A stretch of 30,880 nt of DNA from a virus (taxonomy: Duplodnaviria > Heunggongvirae > Uroviricota > Caudoviricetes). The stretch is taken from IMG/VR virus record IMGVR_UViG_648276660_000001; one strand, 5' to 3'. Made by a program: the position numbers and the translations under genes. The notes beneath the pieces were generated by a model that did not search any database, was not told the DNA's origin, and was given only the letters and a program-made list of their open reading frames with translations. Below are positions 2,031 to 28,678 of the stretch, piece by piece (positions within the stretch are counted from its first letter, which is position 1; every line of letters starts with the position of its first letter).

Positions 2031-2375
2031 ATGAGAAAACAGATACAGGCTCTTGGTCGACTCAAAACAGGTCAGATGAACAAAACAGAATCTGCGTATT
2101 GCCAGCACCTTGAGCTGCGTAAACGTGCAGGAGAAATCGTCTGGTATCGATTTGAGGGTATCAAGCTGCGGTTAGCTGACAACACGTTCTATACGCCCGA
2201 TTTTGCTGTGATGCTCGCCACCGGCGAGATGGAACTGCACGAAGTGAAAGGTTTCTGGACCGACGACGCCAGGGTGAAAACCAAAGTCGCCGCAGATCAG
2301 TATCCGTTCCGAATCATCGGGGTAACGGTTAAACCAAAGAAAGCAGGTGGTGGCTGGATCATCGAAGAGTTCTGA
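2031..2375 (+). CDS. Hypothetical protein, tentatively DUF1064-like (nuclease-fold family common in phage nin regions)
   Basis: ATG preceded by GAGG RBS; 114 aa; pattern ...YTPDF.V......E.KG...D.....K...AAD.YP resembles recalled DUF1064 proteins (not verified by search). Confidence 0.6.
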   Translation: MRKQIQALGRLKTGQMNKTESAYCQHLELRKRAGEIVWYRFEGIKLRLADNTFYTPDFAVMLATGEMELHEVKGFWTDDARVKTKVAADQYPFRIIGVTVKPKKAGGGWIIEEF

Positions 2376-2436
2376 ATCGACGATCTTTTTAGTTATCAAT
2401 GTTATCAATAAGTTATGTGGATAAGCGAGGGTAAAG

Positions 2437-3000
2437 ATGGAAAGTAATATCAAATGGTTAGTTGCCGCCGGGCATGAGATGGCTTCTGAACTGAAAGCAG
2501 AATGTGGTGCCGTTGATATGCGCAGTGTGGCAAAGCTGATCAGCGATTTGGCAACGCAACTGGAAGTGCAACTGGTGCGTGCTAATGCGCTGGCCGAAGA
2601 CCAGCAGAAAGCGATTGAGTCAATTAAGCAGGCTGATGCAGCTGTTAAGTTGGCACACGAGAAGTTTTCGGCGCTGGCAGCGGAGAATGCGGGGCTAAAG
2701 TCTGGCGCTATGGACGAAATCAAGGTTATCAACCGTGGAGGGCAGGCATATTGCGTAAAAGATGGAGTGCAAGTTAATCCCATGTATGCAAGAGGGTGGA
2801 ATGACTATCGCGCAAAGTCTCTGCAATCAGACACCCCAGCTACCGATGCTTTTCTGGCTGAAATTGAACGCAAAGCAATCCGCAAGTTCATTAACAGCAT
2901 TGAACACATCCTGCGTGACAAGCTGTCTCCGTATGACACCGAAGAGATGCTTGAGGCTATGCGTATTTTTCTGGAAGAACAGAGTGGTGAGCAAAAATGA
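2437..3000 (+). CDS. Hypothetical protein
   Basis: 187-aa ORF with GAGGG RBS upstream of ATG; same strand and operon context. Confidence 0.65.
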   Translation: MESNIKWLVAAGHEMASELKAECGAVDMRSVAKLISDLATQLEVQLVRANALAEDQQKAIESIKQADAAVKLAHEKFSALAAENAGLKSGAMDEIKVINRGGQAYCVKDGVQVNPMYARGWNDYRAKSLQSDTPATDAFLAEIERKAIRKFINSIEHILRDKLSPYDTEEMLEAMRIFLEEQSGEQK

Positions 3001-7505: not shown

Positions 7506-8977
7506 CAGATACAGCGTTATCTCCTGAAGAGCAGTTGATCGAGGATATTGCAGGGTTCACTCACGATCCGCTTGGCTATGCCCTCTATGCGTTCCCGTGG
7601 GGGGAAGAGGGGACTGAATTAGCACATGCCACCGGTCCACGTAAGTGGCAGGCTGATGCGTTCCGAGAGATACGTGATCACCTGCAGAATCCAGAGACGC
7701 GCTATCAGCCGCTTATGCTGGCACGTGCTTCTGGTCATGGTATTGGTAAATCCGCATTCATCTCAATGCTGATCAACTGGGGCATGTCCACTTGCGAGGA
7801 TTGTAAGGTTGTGGTGACCGCCAACACCGACAACCAGCTACGAACGAAGACCTGGCCGGAAATTATCAAGTGGTCGAACCTTGCCATCACGAAAGACTGG
7901 TTTACCTGTACCGCTACCGCGATGTACAGCAATGATCCTGGGCACGACAAGCGGTGGCGAGCTGACGCAATCCCCTGGTCTGAGCACAACACTGAGGCAT
8001 TCGCCGGACTACACAACGAGCGCAAACGCATCATCGTGGTATTCGATGAAGCGTCGAACATTGCGGATCTGGTGTGGGAAGTTGCTGAGGGTGCGCTTAC
8101 GGACGAAGACACTGAGATTATCTGGGTGGCGTTCGGAAACCCTACACGTAATACCGGGCGTTTTCGCGAATGTTTCCGCAAATACAAACACCGCTGGAAA
8201 ACTGCGCAGATTGACAGCCGGACGGTGGAAGGTACTAACAAACAGCAGTTGCAGAAATGGGTTGATGACTACGGGGAAGACAGCGACTTCGTTAAAATCC
8301 GTGTGCGCGGCATATTCCCTGATGCATCTGAATTGCAGTTTATCCCTACCGGTCTTACTGATGAGGCAATGAAACGGGTGGTAACCGCTGCGCAGGTGGC
8401 TCATGCTCCGGTGATAATCGGTGTTGACCCGGCATATTCAGGCGTTGATGACGCGGTGATATACCTGCGGCAGGGGTTGCATAGTAAGGTGCTATGGACT
8501 GGCAACAAGACCACTGACGATCTGATTATGGCGAAGCGTATCGCTGACTTTGAAGACCAGTATCAGGCTGACGCGGTGTTCATCGACTTCGGTTACGGAA
8601 CCGGTCTGAAGTCAATCGGTGACGGCTGGGGGCGCACATGGCAACTTGTTCCGTTCGGTGGTGCGTCAACTGACCCTCAGATGCTCAACAAGCGCGGGGA
8701 GATGTTCAACTCATGCAAGACATGGCTGAGGTTGGGCGGGATGCTGGATGACCAGGAAACAGCGGACGATCTGTCGGCGGCAGAGTACAAAGTTCGCGTG
8801 GACGGTAAAATCGTTATCGAACCGAAGGAAGATATCAAAGAACGACTTGGGCGTTCGCCGGGTAAAGGCGATGCGCTACTGCTGACGTTTGCTTTCCCTG
8901 TGTCGAAGCGTCTGCGAATTCCCGGGCAGCAGAACCAGCAAGGCAAGGCCATCACAGATTACGATCCCTATGCTTAA
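7502..8977 (+). CDS. Terminase large subunit (ATPase plus nuclease)
   Basis: Walker A-like ASGHGIGKS, Walker B-like IIVVFDEAS, C-terminal nuclease-like GVDPAY segment; GTGA overlap with the small subunit stop. Confidence 0.9.
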   Translation: MTDTALSPEEQLIEDIAGFTHDPLGYALYAFPWGEEGTELAHATGPRKWQADAFREIRDHLQNPETRYQPLMLARASGHGIGKSAFISMLINWGMSTCEDCKVVVTANTDNQLRTKTWPEIIKWSNLAITKDWFTCTATAMYSNDPGHDKRWRADAIPWSEHNTEAFAGLHNERKRIIVVFDEASNIADLVWEVAEGALTDEDTEIIWVAFGNPTRNTGRFRECFRKYKHRWKTAQIDSRTVEGTNKQQLQKWVDDYGEDSDFVKIRVRGIFPDASELQFIPTGLTDEAMKRVVTAAQVAHAPVIIGVDPAYSGVDDAVIYLRQGLHSKVLWTGNKTTDDLIMAKRIADFEDQYQADAVFIDFGYGTGLKSIGDGWGRTWQLVPFGGASTDPQMLNKRGEMFNSCKTWLRLGGMLDDQETADDLSAAEYKVRVDGKIVIEPKEDIKERLGRSPGKGDALLLTFAFPVSKRLRIPGQQNQQGKAITDYDPYA

Positions 8978-9028
8978 TCCGCTGGTGGGGATAATGTCGT
9001 TGATATCCTCTGATGAGGATAAAACAAA

Positions 9029-9051
9029 GCCAGCTCATCGGCTGGCTGTTT
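9029..9051. terminator. Bidirectional intrinsic terminator (GCCAGC-tcatcg-GCTGGC, T-rich on both sides) abutting palindrome copy 2
   Basis: Hairpin and flanking T/A runs read in sequence between convergent genes. Confidence 0.55.
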
Positions 9052-9063
9052 GTGACATGTCAC
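9052..9063. repeat. Perfect 12-bp palindrome GTGACATGTCAC, copy 2 of 3
   Basis: Exact string read in sequence. Confidence 0.9.
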
Positions 9064-9067
9064 GGTG

Positions 9068-9487
9068 TTATTTAATGGCATTAAATCCAGCGTTGATGGC
9101 TTCCGCAATATTGATGGCACTTGTTTTATCGAAGTGCCCATTCTGAATAAGCGCCGCATGCAGGCATTGTAACTTCATGTTGTATAAGTGTTCGCTCATG
9201 TAATCATTATCACTTTTTGCTTTAGCGTAAACAGCGCGAGAAATATCAAACACATCGCCTTTTTCCATTTCAGAACGTTGTGCTGTTATCCAGTCATGGA
9301 ACGTAACGCTAGTACCATGGTCTTCGCTAAGAGTTAACCCGGCCAGTCCCTCACTCTGAATTACTTCGTAATGCATTTCATTATCAGCAAAAACGCCATA
9401 AAAAATGCAGTCTTCAGCCTGAACGATACGAGAATATTTTAATGGCCATTCATTTAGATACTTAGCCAACATATCAATTGTCTTCAT
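9068..9487 (-). CDS. Hypothetical cargo protein (139 aa) on the opposite strand between terminase and portal
   Basis: AGGTGA RBS 5 nt upstream of ATG (minus strand); no recognisable motif; opposite orientation to flanking structural genes. Confidence 0.65.
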   Translation of the reverse strand: MKTIDMLAKYLNEWPLKYSRIVQAEDCIFYGVFADNEMHYEVIQSEGLAGLTLSEDHGTSVTFHDWITAQRSEMEKGDVFDISRAVYAKAKSDNDYMSEHLYNMKLQCLHAALIQNGHFDKTSAINIAEAINAGFNAIK

Positions 9488-9498
9488 GATCTCACCTT

Positions 9499-9522
9499 AA
9501 AAAAATGCCCGGCGAACCGGGC
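9499..9522 (-). terminator. Intrinsic terminator-like hairpin (GCCCGG-ttcg-CCGGGC plus T7 run on minus strand) ending 1 nt before the RBS of the 139-aa gene
   Basis: Read in sequence; unusual placement suggests an attenuator or read-through control. Confidence 0.45.
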
Positions 9523-9596
9523 GAACTGGAAGCAATGAGTTATGCCTTCCGTGGCTGTACGGGTTTACAGCATGAAGTCATCGCAATGGCGTCCTG

Positions 9597-9642
9597 CTGT
9601 AAAAAGGGCGGTGATAGTCCTTCAAGGGAAACTATCACCGCC
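9597..9642 (-). terminator. Terminator of the tRNA transcript (12-bp perfect stem GGCGGTGATAGT/ACTATCACCGCC followed by CTTTTTA on minus strand)
   Basis: Inverted repeat and T-run read in sequence immediately 3' of the tRNA. Confidence 0.55.
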
Positions 9643-9685
9643 AAGCACCTGGAGCTTCTGGCATCACGGTCCTTAGGCGTGATTC

Positions 9686-9762
9686 TGGCGTGGCATGCAG
9701 GATTCGAACCTGCGACCAACCGCTTAGAAGGCGGTTGCTCTGTCCAACTGAGCTAATGCCAC
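9686..9762 (-). tRNA. tRNA-Arg (anticodon UCU), phage-encoded
   Basis: Minus-strand 77 nt: GTGGCAT-TA-GCTC-AGTTGGACA-GAGC-A-ACCGC-CTTCTAA-GCGGT-TGGTC-GCAGG-TTCGAAT-CCTGC-ATGCCAC-G-CCA; 7-bp acceptor stem, canonical D, anticodon and T arms; anticodon loop CTTCTAA gives TCT; encoded CCA end. Confidence 0.9.
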
Positions 9763-10084
9763 AACGCTGAGAGCACTTAGCCTGTTAAGGCGCCACACTT
9801 TGTCGCGGCTCCATAAATGCTCTCATCGTTGTACCCTCGTCTCTTCCGAGGCGTCACACCGAATCGCCGGGATGGTGAATCCCCGTGCGCGGAATAAAAC
9901 CGCTCGACTTGCACATTCCGGCTACCTGGTTCGTTTGCCCGAGCAAGGGAGGGTGCCCCTTAAACGTATCCAGACCGCTATCGGCGCATGTGCCATACGC
10001 CGTACTGCTCAAAATAAAAGCTCACTCCACCTGTTCAATTTAACGACAAGCCAGTCAGGTTAGTAACCGGAATGAACTCTTTGG

Positions 10085-10121
10085 TTACCTAAAGGGTAAT
10101 AATTAGCGCGTTAAATGTCAA
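10085..10121 (-). promoter_or_regulatory. Predicted minus-strand sigma70 promoter (perfect -35 TTGACA at 10116..10121, 17-bp spacer, -10 TACCCT at 10093..10098) whose -10 is the half-site of operator palindrome TTACCTaaaGGGTAAT (10085..10100)
   Basis: Read in sequence; directs transcription toward the tRNA and the 139-aa gene. Confidence 0.45.
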
Positions 10122-10189
10122 CTTTCTACGATAAATAAATCATATGTGGTTAAATTGGTAATAATTTAATTGCGTACGGAGTCATTGAT

Positions 10190-10396
10190 ATGTGCATGGG
10201 TAGCTCACCATCAGTGCCTGCAACACCAGAAGTTCAGGCAGCACCACAGGAGCAGGATGCCGCCGTTGTTGATGCCCGCGACGAAGAAACACGTCGCCGT
10301 CGCGCTGCTGCTGGTCGTAGTTCTACGCTGCTTACCGGTTCTCAGGGCGACACATCAACTGCTAATACCAGCGGTAAAACGCTGCTTGGTCAGTAA
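10190..10396 (+). CDS. Small virion-associated protein, T7 gp6.7-like (tentative)
   Basis: GGAG RBS; 68 aa starting Met-Cys as in T7 gp6.7 (recalled); its RBS string CGGAGTCATTGA is duplicated before the portal gene; sits immediately upstream of portal. Confidence 0.5.
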   Translation: MCMGSSPSVPATPEVQAAPQEQDAAVVDARDEETRRRRAAAGRSSTLLTGSQGDTSTANTSGKTLLGQ

Positions 10397-10410
10397 CCGG
10401 AGTCATTGAA

Positions 10411-12090
10411 ATGGCGGAAACAACTAAAGAGCGATTGAACAAACAGTTCGCACAACTTGAAAGCGAGCGTCAGTCGTTCGAGCCGCACTGGCGCGAGTTG
10501 AGTGATTACATCAACCCGCGTGGTTCCCGCTTTCTGACTTCTGAGGTCAACCGTAACGATCGACGCAATACACGCATTATTGATTCGACCGGGACTATGG
10601 CGGCGCGCACTCTCGCCAGCGGCATGATGTCAGGCATCACAAGCCCTGCGCGTCCGTGGTTTCGCCTGGCTACGCCAGATCCTGAAATGATGGATTATGG
10701 TCCTGTTAAGTTGTGGCTCGAGGCGGTGCAGAACCGCATGAACGATATGTTCAATAAGTCGAATCTCTACCAGTCTCTTCCGCAGTTATACGGAAGCCTC
10801 GGCACATACAGCACTGGTGCAATGGCGGTGCTGGAGGATGACGAGGACATCATTCGCACAATGCCATTCCCGATAGGCAGTTACTACCTGGCTAACTCAC
10901 CTCGTGGCAGTGTGGACACCTGTTTTCGCAAGTTCTCTATGACTGTTCGTCAGCTTGTTCAGGAGTTCGGGCTAAATAACGTCAGCGAATCCGTAAAAAG
11001 CATGTGGGAAAGCGGCACCTACGAGAAGTGGATTGAAGTGATGCATTCGGTTTACCCGAACATTGACCGCGATACATCGAAGCTGGATAGCAAGAACAAG
11101 CCATTCAAATCGGTTTATTACGAGTTTGGCGGCGATAACGACAAGTTGTTGCGTGAGTCCGGATTCGATGAGTTTCCAATTATGGCTCCGCGCTGGGAAG
11201 TTAACGGCGAAGATGTTTATGGATCATCATGCCCGGGTATGCTGGCGCTTGGACCTGTTAAGGCATTGCAGCTTCTCCAGAAGCGCAAGTCGCAGTTGAT
11301 TGATAAAGCCACCAATCCGCCGATGGTTGCTCCGACTTCCCTCAAGAATCAGCGCGCCTCCCTTCTTCCTGGCGACATCACGTATATCGATCAGATTACT
11401 GGTCAGGATGGTTTCAGGCCTGCTTATCTGGTTAACCCCAGTACAGCAGATCTGGTAGCAGACATTCAGGACACTCGTCAAATCATTAACAGCGCCTACT
11501 TTGTCGATCTGTTCATGATGTTGCAGAACATCAATACCCGCTCGATGCCTGTTGAAGCGGTGATCGAAATGAAAGAAGAAAAACTTCTGATGTTGGGTCC
11601 GGTTCTGGAGCGTCTGAACGACGAATGTCTTAATCCTCTCATTGACCGCGCTTTCTCGATGATGGTGCGTAAAAACATGCTGCCGCCACCGCCAGACGTG
11701 ATGGAAGGTATGCCCCTGAAGGTCGAATACATTTCCGTCATGGCTCAGGCGCAGAAGTCTATCGGCCTGTCCAGTCTGGCGTCCACGGTTAACTTCATTG
11801 GTCAACTTGCGCAAGCGAAACCAGAAGCTCTCGACAAACTCAACGTTGATCAGGCGATCGATGCATTCGCTGATATGTCCGGAGTGTCTCCAACCGTCAT
11901 TGTTCCGCAGGAACAGGTTGAGCAGGCTCGCCAGCAACGAGCACAGCAACAACAGCAGCAACAAATGATGGCGATGGGGATGGCGGCGGCACAGGGTGCC
12001 AAGACGCTAAGCGAAGCTAAAACTTCGGATCCGAGTGTTTTGTCAGCTATGGCGAATGCAGTTAGTGGTCAGGGGGGGCAATCACAATGA
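10411..12090 (+). CDS. Portal (head-to-tail connector) protein, T7 gp8-like
   Basis: 559 aa; Gln/Ala/Met-rich C-terminus (QQQQQQQMMAMGMAAAQGA...) resembles recalled T7 gp8 C-terminus; position after terminase and before scaffold/capsid. Confidence 0.85.
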   Translation: MAETTKERLNKQFAQLESERQSFEPHWRELSDYINPRGSRFLTSEVNRNDRRNTRIIDSTGTMAARTLASGMMSGITSPARPWFRLATPDPEMMDYGPVKLWLEAVQNRMNDMFNKSNLYQSLPQLYGSLGTYSTGAMAVLEDDEDIIRTMPFPIGSYYLANSPRGSVDTCFRKFSMTVRQLVQEFGLNNVSESVKSMWESGTYEKWIEVMHSVYPNIDRDTSKLDSKNKPFKSVYYEFGGDNDKLLRESGFDEFPIMAPRWEVNGEDVYGSSCPGMLALGPVKALQLLQKRKSQLIDKATNPPMVAPTSLKNQRASLLPGDITYIDQITGQDGFRPAYLVNPSTADLVADIQDTRQIINSAYFVDLFMMLQNINTRSMPVEAVIEMKEEKLLMLGPVLERLNDECLNPLIDRAFSMMVRKNMLPPPPDVMEGMPLKVEYISVMAQAQKSIGLSSLASTVNFIGQLAQAKPEALDKLNVDQAIDAFADMSGVSPTVIVPQEQVEQARQQRAQQQQQQQMMAMGMAAAQGAKTLSEAKTSDPSVLSAMANAVSGQGGQSQ

Positions 12091-27611: not shown

Positions 27612-28298
27612 TCAGAAGAACCCAGCCTTGTCGTTGATGTACTCCGCGTGGGTCTGGATATCACGCAGGCATTTGCTCACACCAACAATGTAGCAGAACA
27701 TGGTGGTCAGCTCCGCCGCCGCGCCCGATACGTCGTGCCCGTCTTCCTGTAACTGGTTCAGCAGATTCATCAGCAGTGAGTTCTCCGTCAGGCCGAGAAC
27801 ACCAGACGGAGAATGAATCAGGCTGCGGTAGCCGGGCTTCAGTGGGGCACTGTAGGTTTTGTTCTCTATCTTCATTGCCTGCATCACTGCTGATGCTGTG
27901 GCGTTGGCTACCTGGTCGGCAACTATCTTTATGCGTTCTTCCTGCGGGAGCGAGTTTTTAATGTAACTTCCGGTGCGGCGGATCTGAGGAAGAACCTCAC
28001 CTGTAACCCATTTACGAAAGCGGTAGGGGATAGTGCCTGGTGTCACTGCGTCGCGGCAGCGGAGGATCAGTGTGTAGAGGCCTGACTCGTTGATAATATT
28101 GGTTTCACCTTGACGGCCTAAGTTAAATTTAGCCCTTTCATCATCATCAAGAGATTTTATTGACATAGTGGGGTTTGTCAGTTGAAGAGCTTTAATAACG
28201 TCTTTGGCAACAAACCAAGGATTTCCATCAATAACAATGGCTCGAATGGTGGCTTCTGATTCAAAATGAAAAACAGATGGGGTTACGTTAGCAGTCAT
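27612..28298 (-). CDS. Antirepressor (Bro-N N-terminal domain plus Ant/KilA-C-like C-terminal domain)
   Basis: Translation contains FHFESEATIRAIVIDGNPWFVAKDVIKALQL, typical of Bro-N/AntA domains (recalled); ATG 28298 with GGTGA RBS 6 nt upstream (GTG at 28307 is the alternative). Confidence 0.8.
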   Translation of the reverse strand: MTANVTPSVFHFESEATIRAIVIDGNPWFVAKDVIKALQLTNPTMSIKSLDDDERAKFNLGRQGETNIINESGLYTLILRCRDAVTPGTIPYRFRKWVTGEVLPQIRRTGSYIKNSLPQEERIKIVADQVANATASAVMQAMKIENKTYSAPLKPGYRSLIHSPSGVLGLTENSLLMNLLNQLQEDGHDVSGAAAELTTMFCYIVGVSKCLRDIQTHAEYINDKAGFF

Positions 28299-28456
28299 AG
28301 TGATCACCTTTTAGTATGGTTAATCACCACCTGAGGTGCAAATCTCGTTGGTGGTGAGACGTACAGGGTTTGCACTACCGGCTAAAAGGACCCGGCGCAC
28401 CTTTCGGTGCCCCTGCACGTCCCACCATAATTCTGGCATGACTGTGCTATACGCAT

Positions 28457-28478
28457 AAAAAAACCACGTCTGGCGTGG
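28457..28478 (-). terminator. Intrinsic terminator inside the antirepressor leader (CCACG-ccaga-CGTGG followed by TTTTTTT on minus strand)
   Basis: Hairpin plus U7 read in sequence, about 160 nt upstream of the ant start. Confidence 0.5.
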
Positions 28479-28640
28479 TATGCGCCTTTTAGTAATCCGG
28501 GGTGCAAATCCCGGCACTGGATTTTGCCAGTGCCCGATTACTATGGCACAAGAGGAGTGCGATGTAAATTTACCGAAAAGGTAATGATAAGCGCGAAAAA
28601 ACATTAAAATCAACCGTATTTGGTTGATTGCGTTTAACGC

Positions 28641-28678
28641 TTGATCACCTGAAAGCAAGATATTACCTTTAAGGTAAT
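28641..28678 (+). promoter_or_regulatory. Predicted plus-strand promoter (-35 TTGATC 28641..28646, -10 TACCTT 28664..28669) overlapped by operator palindrome ATTACCTttaAGGTAAT (28662..28678)
   Basis: Read in sequence; drives the gene starting at 28698. Confidence 0.45.

What the first reader, a model, noticed from the sequence alone, without database searches (positions are those of the whole stretch)
9029..10190. tRNA-Arg(UCU) plus an opposite-strand cargo gene inserted between terminase and portal, with a terminator abutting the cargo gene RBS
Seen in sequence: a complete tRNA with anticodon UCU (decodes the rare AGA codon), its own 12-bp-stem terminator, then a second terminator-like hairpin whose U-run ends 1 nt before the Shine-Dalgarno of a 139-aa gene of unknown function. 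A perfect-TTGACA promoter whose -10 is the operator half-site lies about 320 bp upstream, leaving a long GC-rich leader (9763-10084) with no supported ORF. This insertion interrupts an otherwise contiguous late operon; the 139-aa protein is an unassigned cargo (possible anti-defence or host-modulating factor) whose translation may depend on terminator read-through.
Basis: partly seen in the sequence, partly recalled or inferred. Interest (0 to 1): 0.55.

Follow-up and report, generated by a model that had tools for sequence, protein, structure and literature searches.

The report
Unannotated structured phage RNA beside tRNA-Arg
The tRNA, terminators and small cargo gene are real but ordinary; the supposedly empty 320-base "leader" upstream of the tRNA is a conserved, pseudoknotted RNA found in about a third of complete E. 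coli genomes and absent from the Rfam RNA family database.

Summary
- tRNA-Arg(UCU), 9686-9762(-).
- Two terminator hairpins. The second ends directly against the ribosome-binding site of a 139-aa ORF.
- A TTGACA promoter whose -10 lies inside a repressor operator.

The locus is not a private insertion. It is a cassette shared across epsilon15/phiV10-like phages (genus Uetakevirus). Only the cargo gene is swapped; a Klebsiella relative carries a Tad2-like anti-Thoeris gene in that slot.

The new result concerns the "leader".
- Window 10009-9763(-) belongs to a structured RNA family with six covariation-supported helices, two likely pseudoknots and more than 50 invariant positions.
- It has no Rfam match.
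- It occurs in 1840 of 5426 complete E. coli genomes. It sits in the leftward early (pL) leader of lambdoid phages (mEp460, Stx2c phages) and in P1/P7 between trnI and ban.
- A conserved terminator (T1) usually follows it.
- The tRNA occupies a slot that in relatives holds a tRNA-shaped RNA. That segment, up to T1, was published as "sRNA-17".

Function is inferred only. My leading reading (about 0.4) is an RNA that, like the HK022 put RNA, lets RNA polymerase read through T1 and T2. The main rival (about 0.3) is a stable RNA released by RNase P that acts in trans.

The parts
10085..10121 (-). Repressor-controlled promoter: -35 TTGACA (10121-10116), 17-nt spacer, -10 TACCCT (10098-10093), inside the operator palindrome TTACCCTTTAGGTAA (10099-10085).
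   Evidence: Sequence. The operator motif occurs 10 times in the window against 0.5 expected. The same layout recurs at 28640-28677. The -35 and -10 spacing is conserved in epsilon15, SPN9TCW and a Klebsiella phage. The epsilon15 record annotates repressor and IHF sites here.
10010..10084 (-). 5' leader of roughly 75-80 nt between the inferred transcription start and the RNA core.
   Evidence: Conserved with epsilon15 and Klebsiella relatives. Function not analysed. The transcription start is inferred from the promoter, not mapped.
9829..10009 (-). Core of the structured RNA. P1 10002-9997/9987-9982; P2 9978-9971/9928-9921; P3 9908-9906/9868-9866; P3a 9883-9880/9872-9869; P5 9851-9847/9839-9835. 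Candidate pseudoknots: PK1 9993-9988/9916-9911 and PK2 9877-9874/9860-9857.
   Evidence: My covariance model scores it 141.6 bits, E 4e-52. On 35 sequences that are all below 90% identical, 98.7% of cells pair, 11 pairs carry double changes in 76 cells, and 0 of 500 shuffles reach the observed score; slid controls pair 27-45%. There is no Rfam hit even at E<=10.
9763..9832 (-). 3' hairpin ('module A'): conserved stem CAACGAUGAGAGCAUU / AGUGCUCUCAGCGUUG with a hypervariable loop. Its 3' strand carries a boxA-like GUGCUCU motif. It ends exactly at the tRNA 5' end.
   Evidence: Inverted repeat 9761-9779/9814-9832. RNAalifold on 19 relatives gives 16 pairs, 8 of them with compensatory changes. Loop length varies from about 30 to 110 nt.
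9686..9762 (-). tRNA-Arg(UCU) with an encoded CCA.
   Evidence: ARAGORN and Rfam at 73.3 bits. It is present at this junction in 7 of 53 non-redundant relatives. Fourteen others carry a tRNA-shaped frame in the same slot.
9663..9683 (-). Conserved small hairpin AUCACG-CCUAAGGAC-CGUGAU just 3' of the tRNA.
   Evidence: Sequence. Conserved in phiV10, SPN9TCW and the Klebsiella phage, and in lambdoid leaders as AUCACGUUAGGACCGUG.
9597..9642 (-). Terminator T1: 14-bp hairpin plus CUUUUUACAG.
   Evidence: Scan. The motif UUGGCGG-stem-CCGCC-UUUU is found downstream of the core in 30 of 46 relatives on the sense strand and 0 on the antisense strand, with covarying stems. The 3' RACE end of sRNA-17 maps to the homologous U-run.
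9564..9603 (-). Imperfect 18-bp hairpin whose 5' arm overlaps the T1 U-tract.
   Evidence: Inverted repeat I2. Conserved in relatives. Analogous long hairpins follow T1 in lambdoid leaders.
9499..9522 (-). Terminator T2: GCCCGG-UUCG-CCGGGC plus A-U7, abutting the cargo ribosome-binding site.
   Evidence: Scan. One of two alleles of it lies directly before the cargo gene in every Uetakevirus-type locus examined.
9068..9498 (-). Cargo gene: ribosome-binding site AAGGTGAG (9498-9491), ATG at 9487, 139 aa, stop at 9068-9070.
   Evidence: phrog_4846 at 3e-88. 102 enterobacterial homologues, all named hypothetical. Only 27 clusters at 50% identity among 1.8 billion proteins. AlphaFold2 pLDDT 61.7.
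9028..9047 (.). Hairpin shared by the converging terminase operon and the cargo gene; a bidirectional terminator.
   Evidence: Scan, minus strand. phiV10 annotates the same site as a rho-independent terminator for the plus strand. Conserved as AGCCCGC...GCGGGCT in relatives.

Best explanation
Window 10121-9028 (minus strand) is one early transcription unit under control of the phage repressor. The first two paragraphs describe what was shown here; the last two are inference.

Order of parts: promoter and operator; a leader of about 80 nt; a structured RNA of about 245 nt (pseudoknotted core plus a variable-loop hairpin); tRNA-Arg(UCU); a small hairpin; terminator T1; a long hairpin; terminator T2; and a 139-aa accessory gene in an exchangeable slot.

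The structured RNA is the conserved heart of the unit. It is a member of an undescribed family that sits in early operons of unrelated temperate enterobacterial phages. These are the pL leader of lambdoid phages, the P1/P7 ban operon, and epsilon15-like phages.

Because the RNA ends exactly where the tRNA begins, RNase P should separate the two. In relatives the RNA ends where a tRNA-shaped RNA begins.

The role I think most likely resembles that of the HK022 put RNA. The nascent RNA folds, stays with the transcribing polymerase, and makes it resistant to T1 and T2. Transcription from the derepressed promoter then reaches the cargo gene, or the early-left genes in lambdoid phages. The tRNA is a passenger that supplies the AGA decoding the phage uses heavily.
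For: The RNA is real.
- Covariation statistics, a CM score of 141.6 bits, and covariation in the module A stem.
- 127 of 135 pattern-scan copies carry the second conserved block as well.
- The hosts are Enterobacteriaceae genera.
- It occurs in 1840 of 5426 complete E. coli genomes and is never annotated there.

It lies in early, sense-strand positions.
- An operator-overlapped promoter lies here and in relatives.
- In lambdoid phages it lies just after the cI terminator and a promoter with operator palindromes. The authors of the Ayreon record annotate that promoter themselves.
- Downstream genes lie on the same strand.

Terminators follow it.
- T1 is conserved in 30 of 46 relatives on the sense strand and 0 on the antisense strand.
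- Terminator-like sites in the 900 nt downstream number 42 on the sense strand against 16 on the antisense strand.
- In lambdoid phages T1 precedes every protein gene of the operon.
- Ayreon has an annotated terminator further along the same operon.

An RNA-based mechanism has been suggested for a related phage.
- Phage LLS, whose early-left genes are of the same yfdPQR type, has no N homologue. Its authors suggest put-type antitermination (PMC12315714). LLS itself lacks this core (see evidence against).

There is motif-level likeness to put.
- Shared ACGGCG-loop-CAUGCGUCG, which includes the context of the essential U28, and shared GCGG-hairpin-GG(C)AAUG.
- That motif occurs in 2.9 Mb of fetched loci only in this family and in the two putL sites.
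- put keeps working after it is cut from the transcript (PMC9378689). RNase P cleavage at the tRNA would therefore not defeat the mechanism.
Against: - No experiment links this RNA to termination.
- My covariance model does not detect HK022 or HK639 put; HK639 putL scores 0.1 bit. Homology to put is therefore unproven. I also found the shared motif post hoc, and about one chance hit is expected in 2.9 Mb.
- sRNA-17 is seen on a Northern blot as a discrete 193-nt RNA that ends at T1. T1 therefore does terminate, or at least define a stable 3' end, downstream of an intact core.
- Phage LLS has module A, the tRNA-shaped frame and T1 but lacks the core. Either something else handles T1 there or T1 is leaky.
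- In P1/P7 the core sits in mid-operon, right after trnI and before ban, with no T1.
- Epsilon15 has deleted most of the core and the tRNA but keeps T2 and a cargo gene.
- Processive read-through in this phage would also run past the modest terminator at 9028-9047 into the antisense strand of the terminase gene.
Confidence: 0.4

Rival explanations
1. The structured RNA is a stable RNA that acts in trans. It is cut out of the early transcript by RNase P at the tRNA or tRNA-like junction. It then acts on a host or phage target, for example as an anti-defence RNA, a regulatory RNA or part of a ribonucleoprotein. T1 and T2 simply end this RNA operon, and the cargo gene is reached only by leak or from its own promoter.
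For: - The 3' end coincides exactly with a tRNA 5' end in 7 lineages and with a tRNA-shaped frame in 14 others.
- In P1/P7 a tRNA lies directly 5' of the RNA.
- The neighbouring segment, sRNA-17, accumulates as a discrete 193-nt RNA. Its 5' end lies within 4 nt of the junction and its 3' end at T1. Its deletion changes host phenotypes.
- The fold is complex: two candidate pseudoknots and more than 50 invariant positions.
- The distribution is mosaic and moron-like. The RNA is dispensable in epsilon15 and LLS.
- The slot next to it carries anti-defence cargo.
Against: - No target, no partner protein and no evidence that the core itself accumulates.
- In lambdoid phages this reading leaves the whole early-left operon behind T1 with no known way through.
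- The RNA is always in sense orientation and upstream of an operon rather than free-standing.
Confidence: 0.3
2. The region is a nut-type leader. A boxA-like sequence, plus a boxB-like hairpin in relatives, recruits Nus factors and an unrecognised phage protein, as at lambda nutL. The long hairpin is an RNase III site, as in the lambda N leader.
For: - The 3' strand of module A reads GUGCUCU(C/U)(A/U), like boxA. This comparison rests on my own knowledge of rrn and lambda boxA.
- Tracts in tRNA-less relatives have a covarying 5-bp hairpin with loop GGCUGA about 15 nt downstream.
- The epsilon15 record annotates an RNase III processing site in this region.
Against: - The boxA-like tract is base-paired within a conserved stem.
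- The window has a tRNA where the boxB-like hairpin would be.
- No N-like ORF lies between the promoter and T1, and none is reported in LLS.
- This reading does not explain the 180-nt pseudoknotted core.
Confidence: 0.1
3. The core is a sensor of riboswitch type or with a bound factor. It sets how much transcription passes T1.
For: Aptamer-grade conservation and pseudoknots lie upstream of a conserved terminator.
Against: T1 lies 200-600 nt from the core, with variable inserts or a whole tRNA in between. There is no alternative pairing between the core and T1 typical of an expression platform. P1/P7 copies lack T1.
Confidence: 0.08
4. The stretch is a plain long leader without a function of its own, or it codes on the plus strand as the mEp460_037-type ORF annotated in some records.
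For: A stop-free frame on the window's plus strand exists in 29 of 35 relatives. The mEp460 and Ayreon records annotate ORFs over it.
Against: Compensatory base changes occur in six helices. The lengths of the variable segments fall in all three mod-3 classes. The conserved blocks are separated by indels. The annotated ORFs differ in strand and frame between records.
Confidence: 0.03

Closest known systems
HK022 putL/putR and the HK639 putL-like antiterminator RNA
   Same: Both are cis-encoded RNAs just downstream of a repressor-controlled early promoter in phages that lack N, with terminators further along the operon. They share the hairpin sequence ACGGCG...CAUGCGUCG and a GCGG-hairpin-GG(C)AAUG arrangement.
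   Different: put is about 70 nt with two stems. This RNA is 170-245 nt with five or more helices and two candidate pseudoknots. It starts 50-80 nt after the transcription start rather than at +1 to +3. There is one copy per phage. My covariance model does not score put. Antitermination has not been tested.
sRNA-17 of the mEp460-like prophage in E. coli K1 RS218 (Song et al. 2020, PMC7719688)
   Same: It comes from the same leader. Its 193 nt run from the junction at the 3' end of this RNA (CGUUGUGGUGAAU...) to T1. The window shares T1 and the small hairpin before it.
   Different: sRNA-17 is the segment downstream of the core. That study used the core plus module A as a 'promoter fragment'. 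In the window the tRNA-shaped body of sRNA-17 is replaced by a real tRNA-Arg.
Lambda N leader / nutL
   Same: Both are long leaders of more than 200 nt after pL, with a boxA-like tract and a large hairpin before the first gene.
   Different: No N gene. The boxA-like tract is paired. The core has no counterpart in lambda.
RNAs matured by RNase P at a tRNA or tRNA-like neighbour (P1/P7 C4 RNA, P4 CI RNA, eukaryotic MALAT1-mascRNA); this comparison rests on my own knowledge
   Same: The end of a non-coding RNA is defined by an adjacent tRNA-like structure.
   Different: Processing here is inferred only from geometry. The sRNA-17 5' RACE end lies within 4 nt of the junction.
Phage-borne tRNA-Arg(UCU), for example in Stx phages and phiV10 relatives
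   Same: Same anticodon. The phage genes are rich in AGA. The tRNA is annotated in several relatives.
   Different: Nothing notable. This part is ordinary.

Membership tests
tRNA (Rfam RF00005) | Cloverleaf that scores above the gathering threshold, with an anticodon loop | tested here: met
   73.3 bits against a threshold of 29. ARAGORN calls Arg with anticodon tct.
put antiterminator RNA (HK022 type) | Lies downstream of an early promoter, in sense orientation to the operon | tested here: met
put antiterminator RNA (HK022 type) | Two-stem fold of about 70 nt with the family's conserved sequence | tested here: not met
   My covariance model of this family gives 0.1 bit on HK639 putL and nothing on HK022 putL. 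Only short motifs are shared. No put model was available for the reverse test.
put antiterminator RNA (HK022 type) | Suppresses downstream terminators and depends on the beta' zinc-binding domain | not testable with these tools
   Needs reporter or in vitro transcription assays.
Lambda-type nut site | boxA plus boxB hairpin and an N-family protein | tested here: not met
   The window has only a boxA-like tract, and it is paired. The boxB-like hairpin occurs only in tRNA-less relatives. No N-like ORF was found.
Any Rfam 15 family | cmscan match to the leader | tested here: not met
   Nothing in 9763-10084 at the gathering score or at E<=10. Nothing in the lambdoid or P7 copies at E<=0.1.
sRNA-17 | 193-nt RNA running from the junction to T1, with a tRNA-shaped body | tested here: inconclusive
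   T1 and the preceding hairpin are shared. The body is replaced by tRNA-Arg in the window.
Intrinsic terminator | GC-rich hairpin followed by a U-run | tested here: met
   T1, T2 and 9028-9047. In vivo 3' end at the T1 homologue.
Tad2 or other known anti-defence proteins (for the 139-aa cargo) | Match to a Pfam, PADLOC or solved-structure profile | tested here: not met
   No hit. Tad2-like is found only in the Klebsiella phage's gene in the same slot.

The most novel reading that the evidence does not exclude
The core is a new class of phage structured RNA with ribozyme- or riboswitch-grade architecture. It is excised from early transcripts by RNase P at a tRNA or tRNA-mimic 'punctuation mark'. 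It acts in its own right, for example by binding RNA polymerase or another host machine, or by countering a defence system. It would have gone unseen in phage P1, Stx2c phages and a third of complete E. coli genomes.
Probability: 0.3. Interest if true: 0.85.

Novelty: new variant of a known kind. Interest (0 to 1): 0.66.

Why it matters
If the RNA is an antiterminator, it would be a second and much larger architecture for RNA-only control of RNA polymerase. It would also explain how the many lambdoid phages that lack N express their early-left genes, a gap that phage genomics papers have noted. If it is not, it is still a very common and highly conserved phage RNA of unknown role, sitting in textbook genomes such as P1 and in Shiga-toxin phages. 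It also changes how the published sRNA-17 should be read, because the DNA used as that sRNA's "promoter" is itself transcribed, structured RNA. The cargo slot flanked by conserved terminators is a ready place to look for new anti-defence genes.

Tried and rejected
- Rfam found nothing for the leader at the gathering score or at E<=10.
- A full-text search of papers for the RNA's conserved sequence strings found nothing relevant.
- King et al. 2011 on new put RNAs is not held in the library. I took put sequences from the HK639 and HK022 records instead.
- The covariance model against put gave no significant score.
- E. coli K-12 prophage CPS-53, which carries the yfdPQR genes, lacks the RNA.
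- The RS218 genome is not in the collection. I mapped sRNA-17 through its primers instead.
- Phage LLS lacks the core.
- The idea that a gene starts at the conserved GUGGUGAA was dropped. The ORFs there are short and not conserved, and the tract pairs as an acceptor-like stem.
- The cargo protein gave no functional lead. Pfam, PADLOC, a PDB profile search and an exhaustive profile search returned no hit with a known function. The AlphaFold2 model has low confidence and its Foldseek matches are meaningless.
- I considered a phi29 pRNA-like packaging role because the RNA lies between terminase and portal. I rejected it because lambdoid and P1 copies sit elsewhere.
Full report
**1. Where the window comes from**

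The region matches epsilon15/phiV10-like podoviruses (genus Uetakevirus). Phage HEMP4 covers 100% of window 8900-10450 at 95.5% identity. phiV10 covers 73% at 98% identity, the gap being the cargo gene.

**2.

- ARAGORN and Rfam both call tRNA-Arg(UCU) at 9686-9762(-).
- Terminator T1 is a 14-bp hairpin at 9642-9607 followed by CUUUUUACAG. Terminator T2 is GCCCGGUUCGCCGGGC at 9522-9507 followed by A-U7 at 9506-9499.
- AAGGTGAG follows T2 without a gap, and the 139-aa ORF starts at 9487.
- The promoter is TTGACA (10121-10116), a 17-nt spacer, then TACCCT (10098-10093). The -10 lies inside the palindrome TTACCCTTTAGGTAA.
- That palindrome type occurs 10 times in the window against 0.5 expected.
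- The same promoter-in-operator layout recurs at 28640-28677.
- Epsilon15 annotates the homologous site as a repressor binding site.
- The unit is therefore an early, repressor-controlled one. It diverges from the portal operon and converges on the terminase operon at a shared hairpin, 9028-9047.

**3. The locus is a genus-wide cassette, not an insertion**

- Alignments with phiV10, SPN9TCW, a Klebsiella phage and epsilon15 show the block from promoter to T2 is conserved across genera. The exception is epsilon15, which has deleted most of the RNA and the tRNA. The gene between T2 and the bidirectional terminator differs.
- The genes found in that slot are:
  - phrog_4846 here;
  - PF13876 (N4 gp49 / Sf6 gp66 family) in phiV10 and epsilon15;
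  - phrog_11227 in SPN9TCW;
  - a Tad2-like Thoeris anti-defence domain (PF11195, 4e-26) in the Klebsiella phage.
- The window's protein has 102 enterobacterial homologues, all named hypothetical.
- It has only 27 clusters at 50% identity among 1.8 billion proteins.
- It has no Pfam, PADLOC or PDB relative. Its AlphaFold2 model is poor, with pLDDT 61.7.
- Its C-terminal helical module of about 50 aa is shared with proteins that carry a different N-terminal half.

**4. The tRNA rationale is conventional**

- AGA is used about 8 times per 1000 codons in the window's ORFs, mostly in early and tail genes. It is absent from the cargo gene.
- This is several-fold above the roughly 2 per 1000 I recall for E. 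coli K-12, which I did not compute here.

**5. The "leader" is a structured RNA family**

Distribution:
- BLAST with 9763-10110 found about 82% identical, unannotated DNA in lambdoid phages (mEp460, cdtI, Stx2c phages, Ayreon), in P7, and in Klebsiella, Salmonella and Enterobacter relatives.
- It is present in 1840 of 5426 complete E. coli genomes, 554 of the sites being on plasmids. RefSeq annotates nothing there other than the adjoining tRNA-Arg.
- P1 itself carries it in the 286-nt gap between trnI and ban, unannotated among that record's 535 features.
- A pattern scan recovered copies from Escherichia, Citrobacter, Klebsiella, Kosakonia, Phytobacter, Kluyvera, Enterobacter, Erwinia and other genera. 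It also recovered 120 or more viral contigs.
- 127 of the 135 unique copies carry the second conserved block as well. The eight that do not include the non-enteric hits, which look like chance matches.

Structure:
- Fifty-three copies remain after removing pairs at or above 90% identity. Thirty-five of them give a 200-column alignment with 54 invariant columns.
- The alignment shows P1, P2, P3/P3a and P5, and two candidate pseudoknots.
  - PK1 pairs the invariant GGCACAU with the invariant AAUGUGC.
  - PK2 pairs the loop (C/A)ACC with GGU(G/U).
- 98.7% of cells pair. Eleven pairs show double changes in 76 cells. No shuffle in 500 reaches the observed score. Slid controls pair only 27-45%.
- PK2 has one covarying pair. 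PK1 never varies, so it is untested.
- A 3' hairpin (module A) has a conserved stem with 8 of its 16 pairs showing compensatory changes. Its loop is hypervariable, from 30 to 110 nt.
- Copy lengths fall in all three mod-3 classes, which argues against coding.
- My covariance model scores the window at 141.6 bits. Rfam 15 has nothing, even at E<=10.

**6. Context of the family**

- In lambdoid phages the RNA follows the cI terminator and a promoter with operator palindromes, which is the pL position. Ayreon's authors annotate that promoter.
- The genes downstream are on the same strand. They include yfdP/Q/R-type and ParB-like genes.
- A conserved terminator homologous to T1 (UUGGCGG-stem-CCGCC-UUUU) follows the core in 30 of 46 copies on the sense strand and never on the antisense strand. 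Its stems covary.
- It is followed by a long hairpin and a second hairpin.
- Only 7 of 53 copies have tRNA-Arg at the 3' junction. Three copies, of P1/P7 type, have tRNA-Ile/Met(CAU) directly 5' of the RNA.
- In 14 tRNA-less copies the tRNA slot holds a segment of 62-202 nt. It has:
  - an acceptor-like stem, GUGGUG/CACCAC;
  - a covarying 5' hairpin;
  - a hypervariable middle;
  - a T-arm-like hairpin that abuts the 3' strand.
- I infer that RNase P cuts at the same junction in all of these.

**7. Link to published work**

- The primers in Song et al. 2020 (PMC7719688) show where sRNA-17 lies. It is a 193-nt RNA confirmed by Northern blot and RACE. It runs from CGUUGUGGUGAAU, within 4 nt of that junction, to the T1 U-run.
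- Their "promoter fragment" for ArcA binding is exactly the core plus module A. Their qRT-PCR amplicon begins at the 5' end of the core. The core is therefore transcribed together with sRNA-17.
- The paper itself reports no Rfam homologue for sRNA-17.

**8. Function (inference only)**

For a put-like role:
- The early-leader position.
- The terminators that lie ahead of all the genes in lambdoid copies.
- The absence of an N homologue in LLS, a phage with the same type of early-left genes. Its authors proposed put-type antitermination (PMC12315714).
- Short motifs shared with HK022 and HK639 putL (ACGGCG...CAUGCGUCG and GCGG-hairpin-GG(C)AAUG), found nowhere else in 2.9 Mb of fetched DNA.
- The fact that put acts after release from the transcript.

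Against it:
- No score for put with my model.
- sRNA-17 ends at T1 in vivo.
- LLS has module A, the tRNA-shaped frame and T1 but no core.
- P1/P7 copies lack T1.
- Epsilon15 has lost most of the core and the tRNA, through a deletion between a repeated UUCCCUUGAUGCU in the P2 and T1 loops. It still keeps T2 and a cargo gene.

I put the cis-antitermination reading at about 0.4 and a trans-acting RNA released by RNase P at about 0.3. A nut-type leader, a sensor and a non-functional leader make up the rest.

**9. Verdict**

The tRNA, terminators and cargo gene are ordinary and already partly annotated in relatives. The adjacent RNA is a widespread, undescribed structured RNA family. Its closest functional analogue is put, but it fails the membership test for that family.

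Noticed in passing
window 28347-28533 (-), with the ORF at 27612-28307 (-): C4 antisense RNA (77.8 bits) and IsrK (67.4 bits) lie in tandem upstream of a 231-aa ORF. This looks like a P1 immI-style anti-repressor control module in a Uetakevirus. The same IsrK and C4 pair occurs in mEp460 (L005 4847-5035), a lambdoid phage that also carries the structured RNA.
   Followed up: partly
window 23, 1951, 2013, 6877, 6895, 10085, 27525, 28570, 28663, 29783: There are ten copies of the operator palindrome TTACC-N5-GGTAA against 0.5 expected. Control by one repressor at many dispersed operators recalls P1 C1.
   Followed up: partly
L003 (epsilon15) 2189-2297: Epsilon15 keeps only P1 and half of P2 of the RNA. 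The breakpoint joins the P2 loop to the T1 loop at a shared UUCCCUUGAUGCU repeat and removes the rest of the core and the tRNA. The P2 and T1 loops share this motif in Salmonella-type copies.
   Followed up: partly
L163 (phage LLS) 31780-32260 (-): The LLS pL leader has module A, the tRNA-shaped frame, a T1-like terminator and the later hairpins. A different 5' module of about 120 nt, ending in its own terminator-like hairpin, stands in place of the core. The leader seems to be built from exchangeable RNA modules.
   Followed up: no
L005 (mEp460) 2312-2504 (-) and 2497-2745 (-): The published sRNA-17 'promoter fragment' used for ArcA gel shifts is itself the transcribed structured RNA. The sRNA-17 5' end is therefore probably a processing site, not a transcription start.
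   Followed up: yes
L008 (Klebsiella phage ST512-KPC3phi13.3) 1635-2156 (-): The gene in the cargo slot carries a Tad2-like Thoeris anti-defence domain (PF11195, 4e-26). This marks the terminator-flanked slot as a likely anti-defence locus.
   Followed up: partly
window 9071-9487 (-); proteins P0093, P0094, P0097, P0099: The last 50 or so residues of the cargo protein (KSDxDYxxEHLYNMKLQCLHAALIQ...AINAGFDAIK) are a confident two-helix module. They also occur fused to an unrelated N-terminal half, which suggests a shared docking or oligomerisation domain.
   Followed up: no
window 10010-10084 (-); L083 about 540-600 nt after the core start; L012 and L067 module A loops: A motif GUCGUUAAAU-N6-9-GGAGUG(A/C)GCU recurs in three places: upstream of the core in Uetakeviruses, inside module A loops, and after T1 in lambdoid leaders. 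It is unexplained.
   Followed up: no
L164 (P1) 1519-1804, that is NC_005856 71009-71294: Phage P1 carries the RNA core in the trnI-ban gap, with no annotation in a record that has 535 features.
   Followed up: partly
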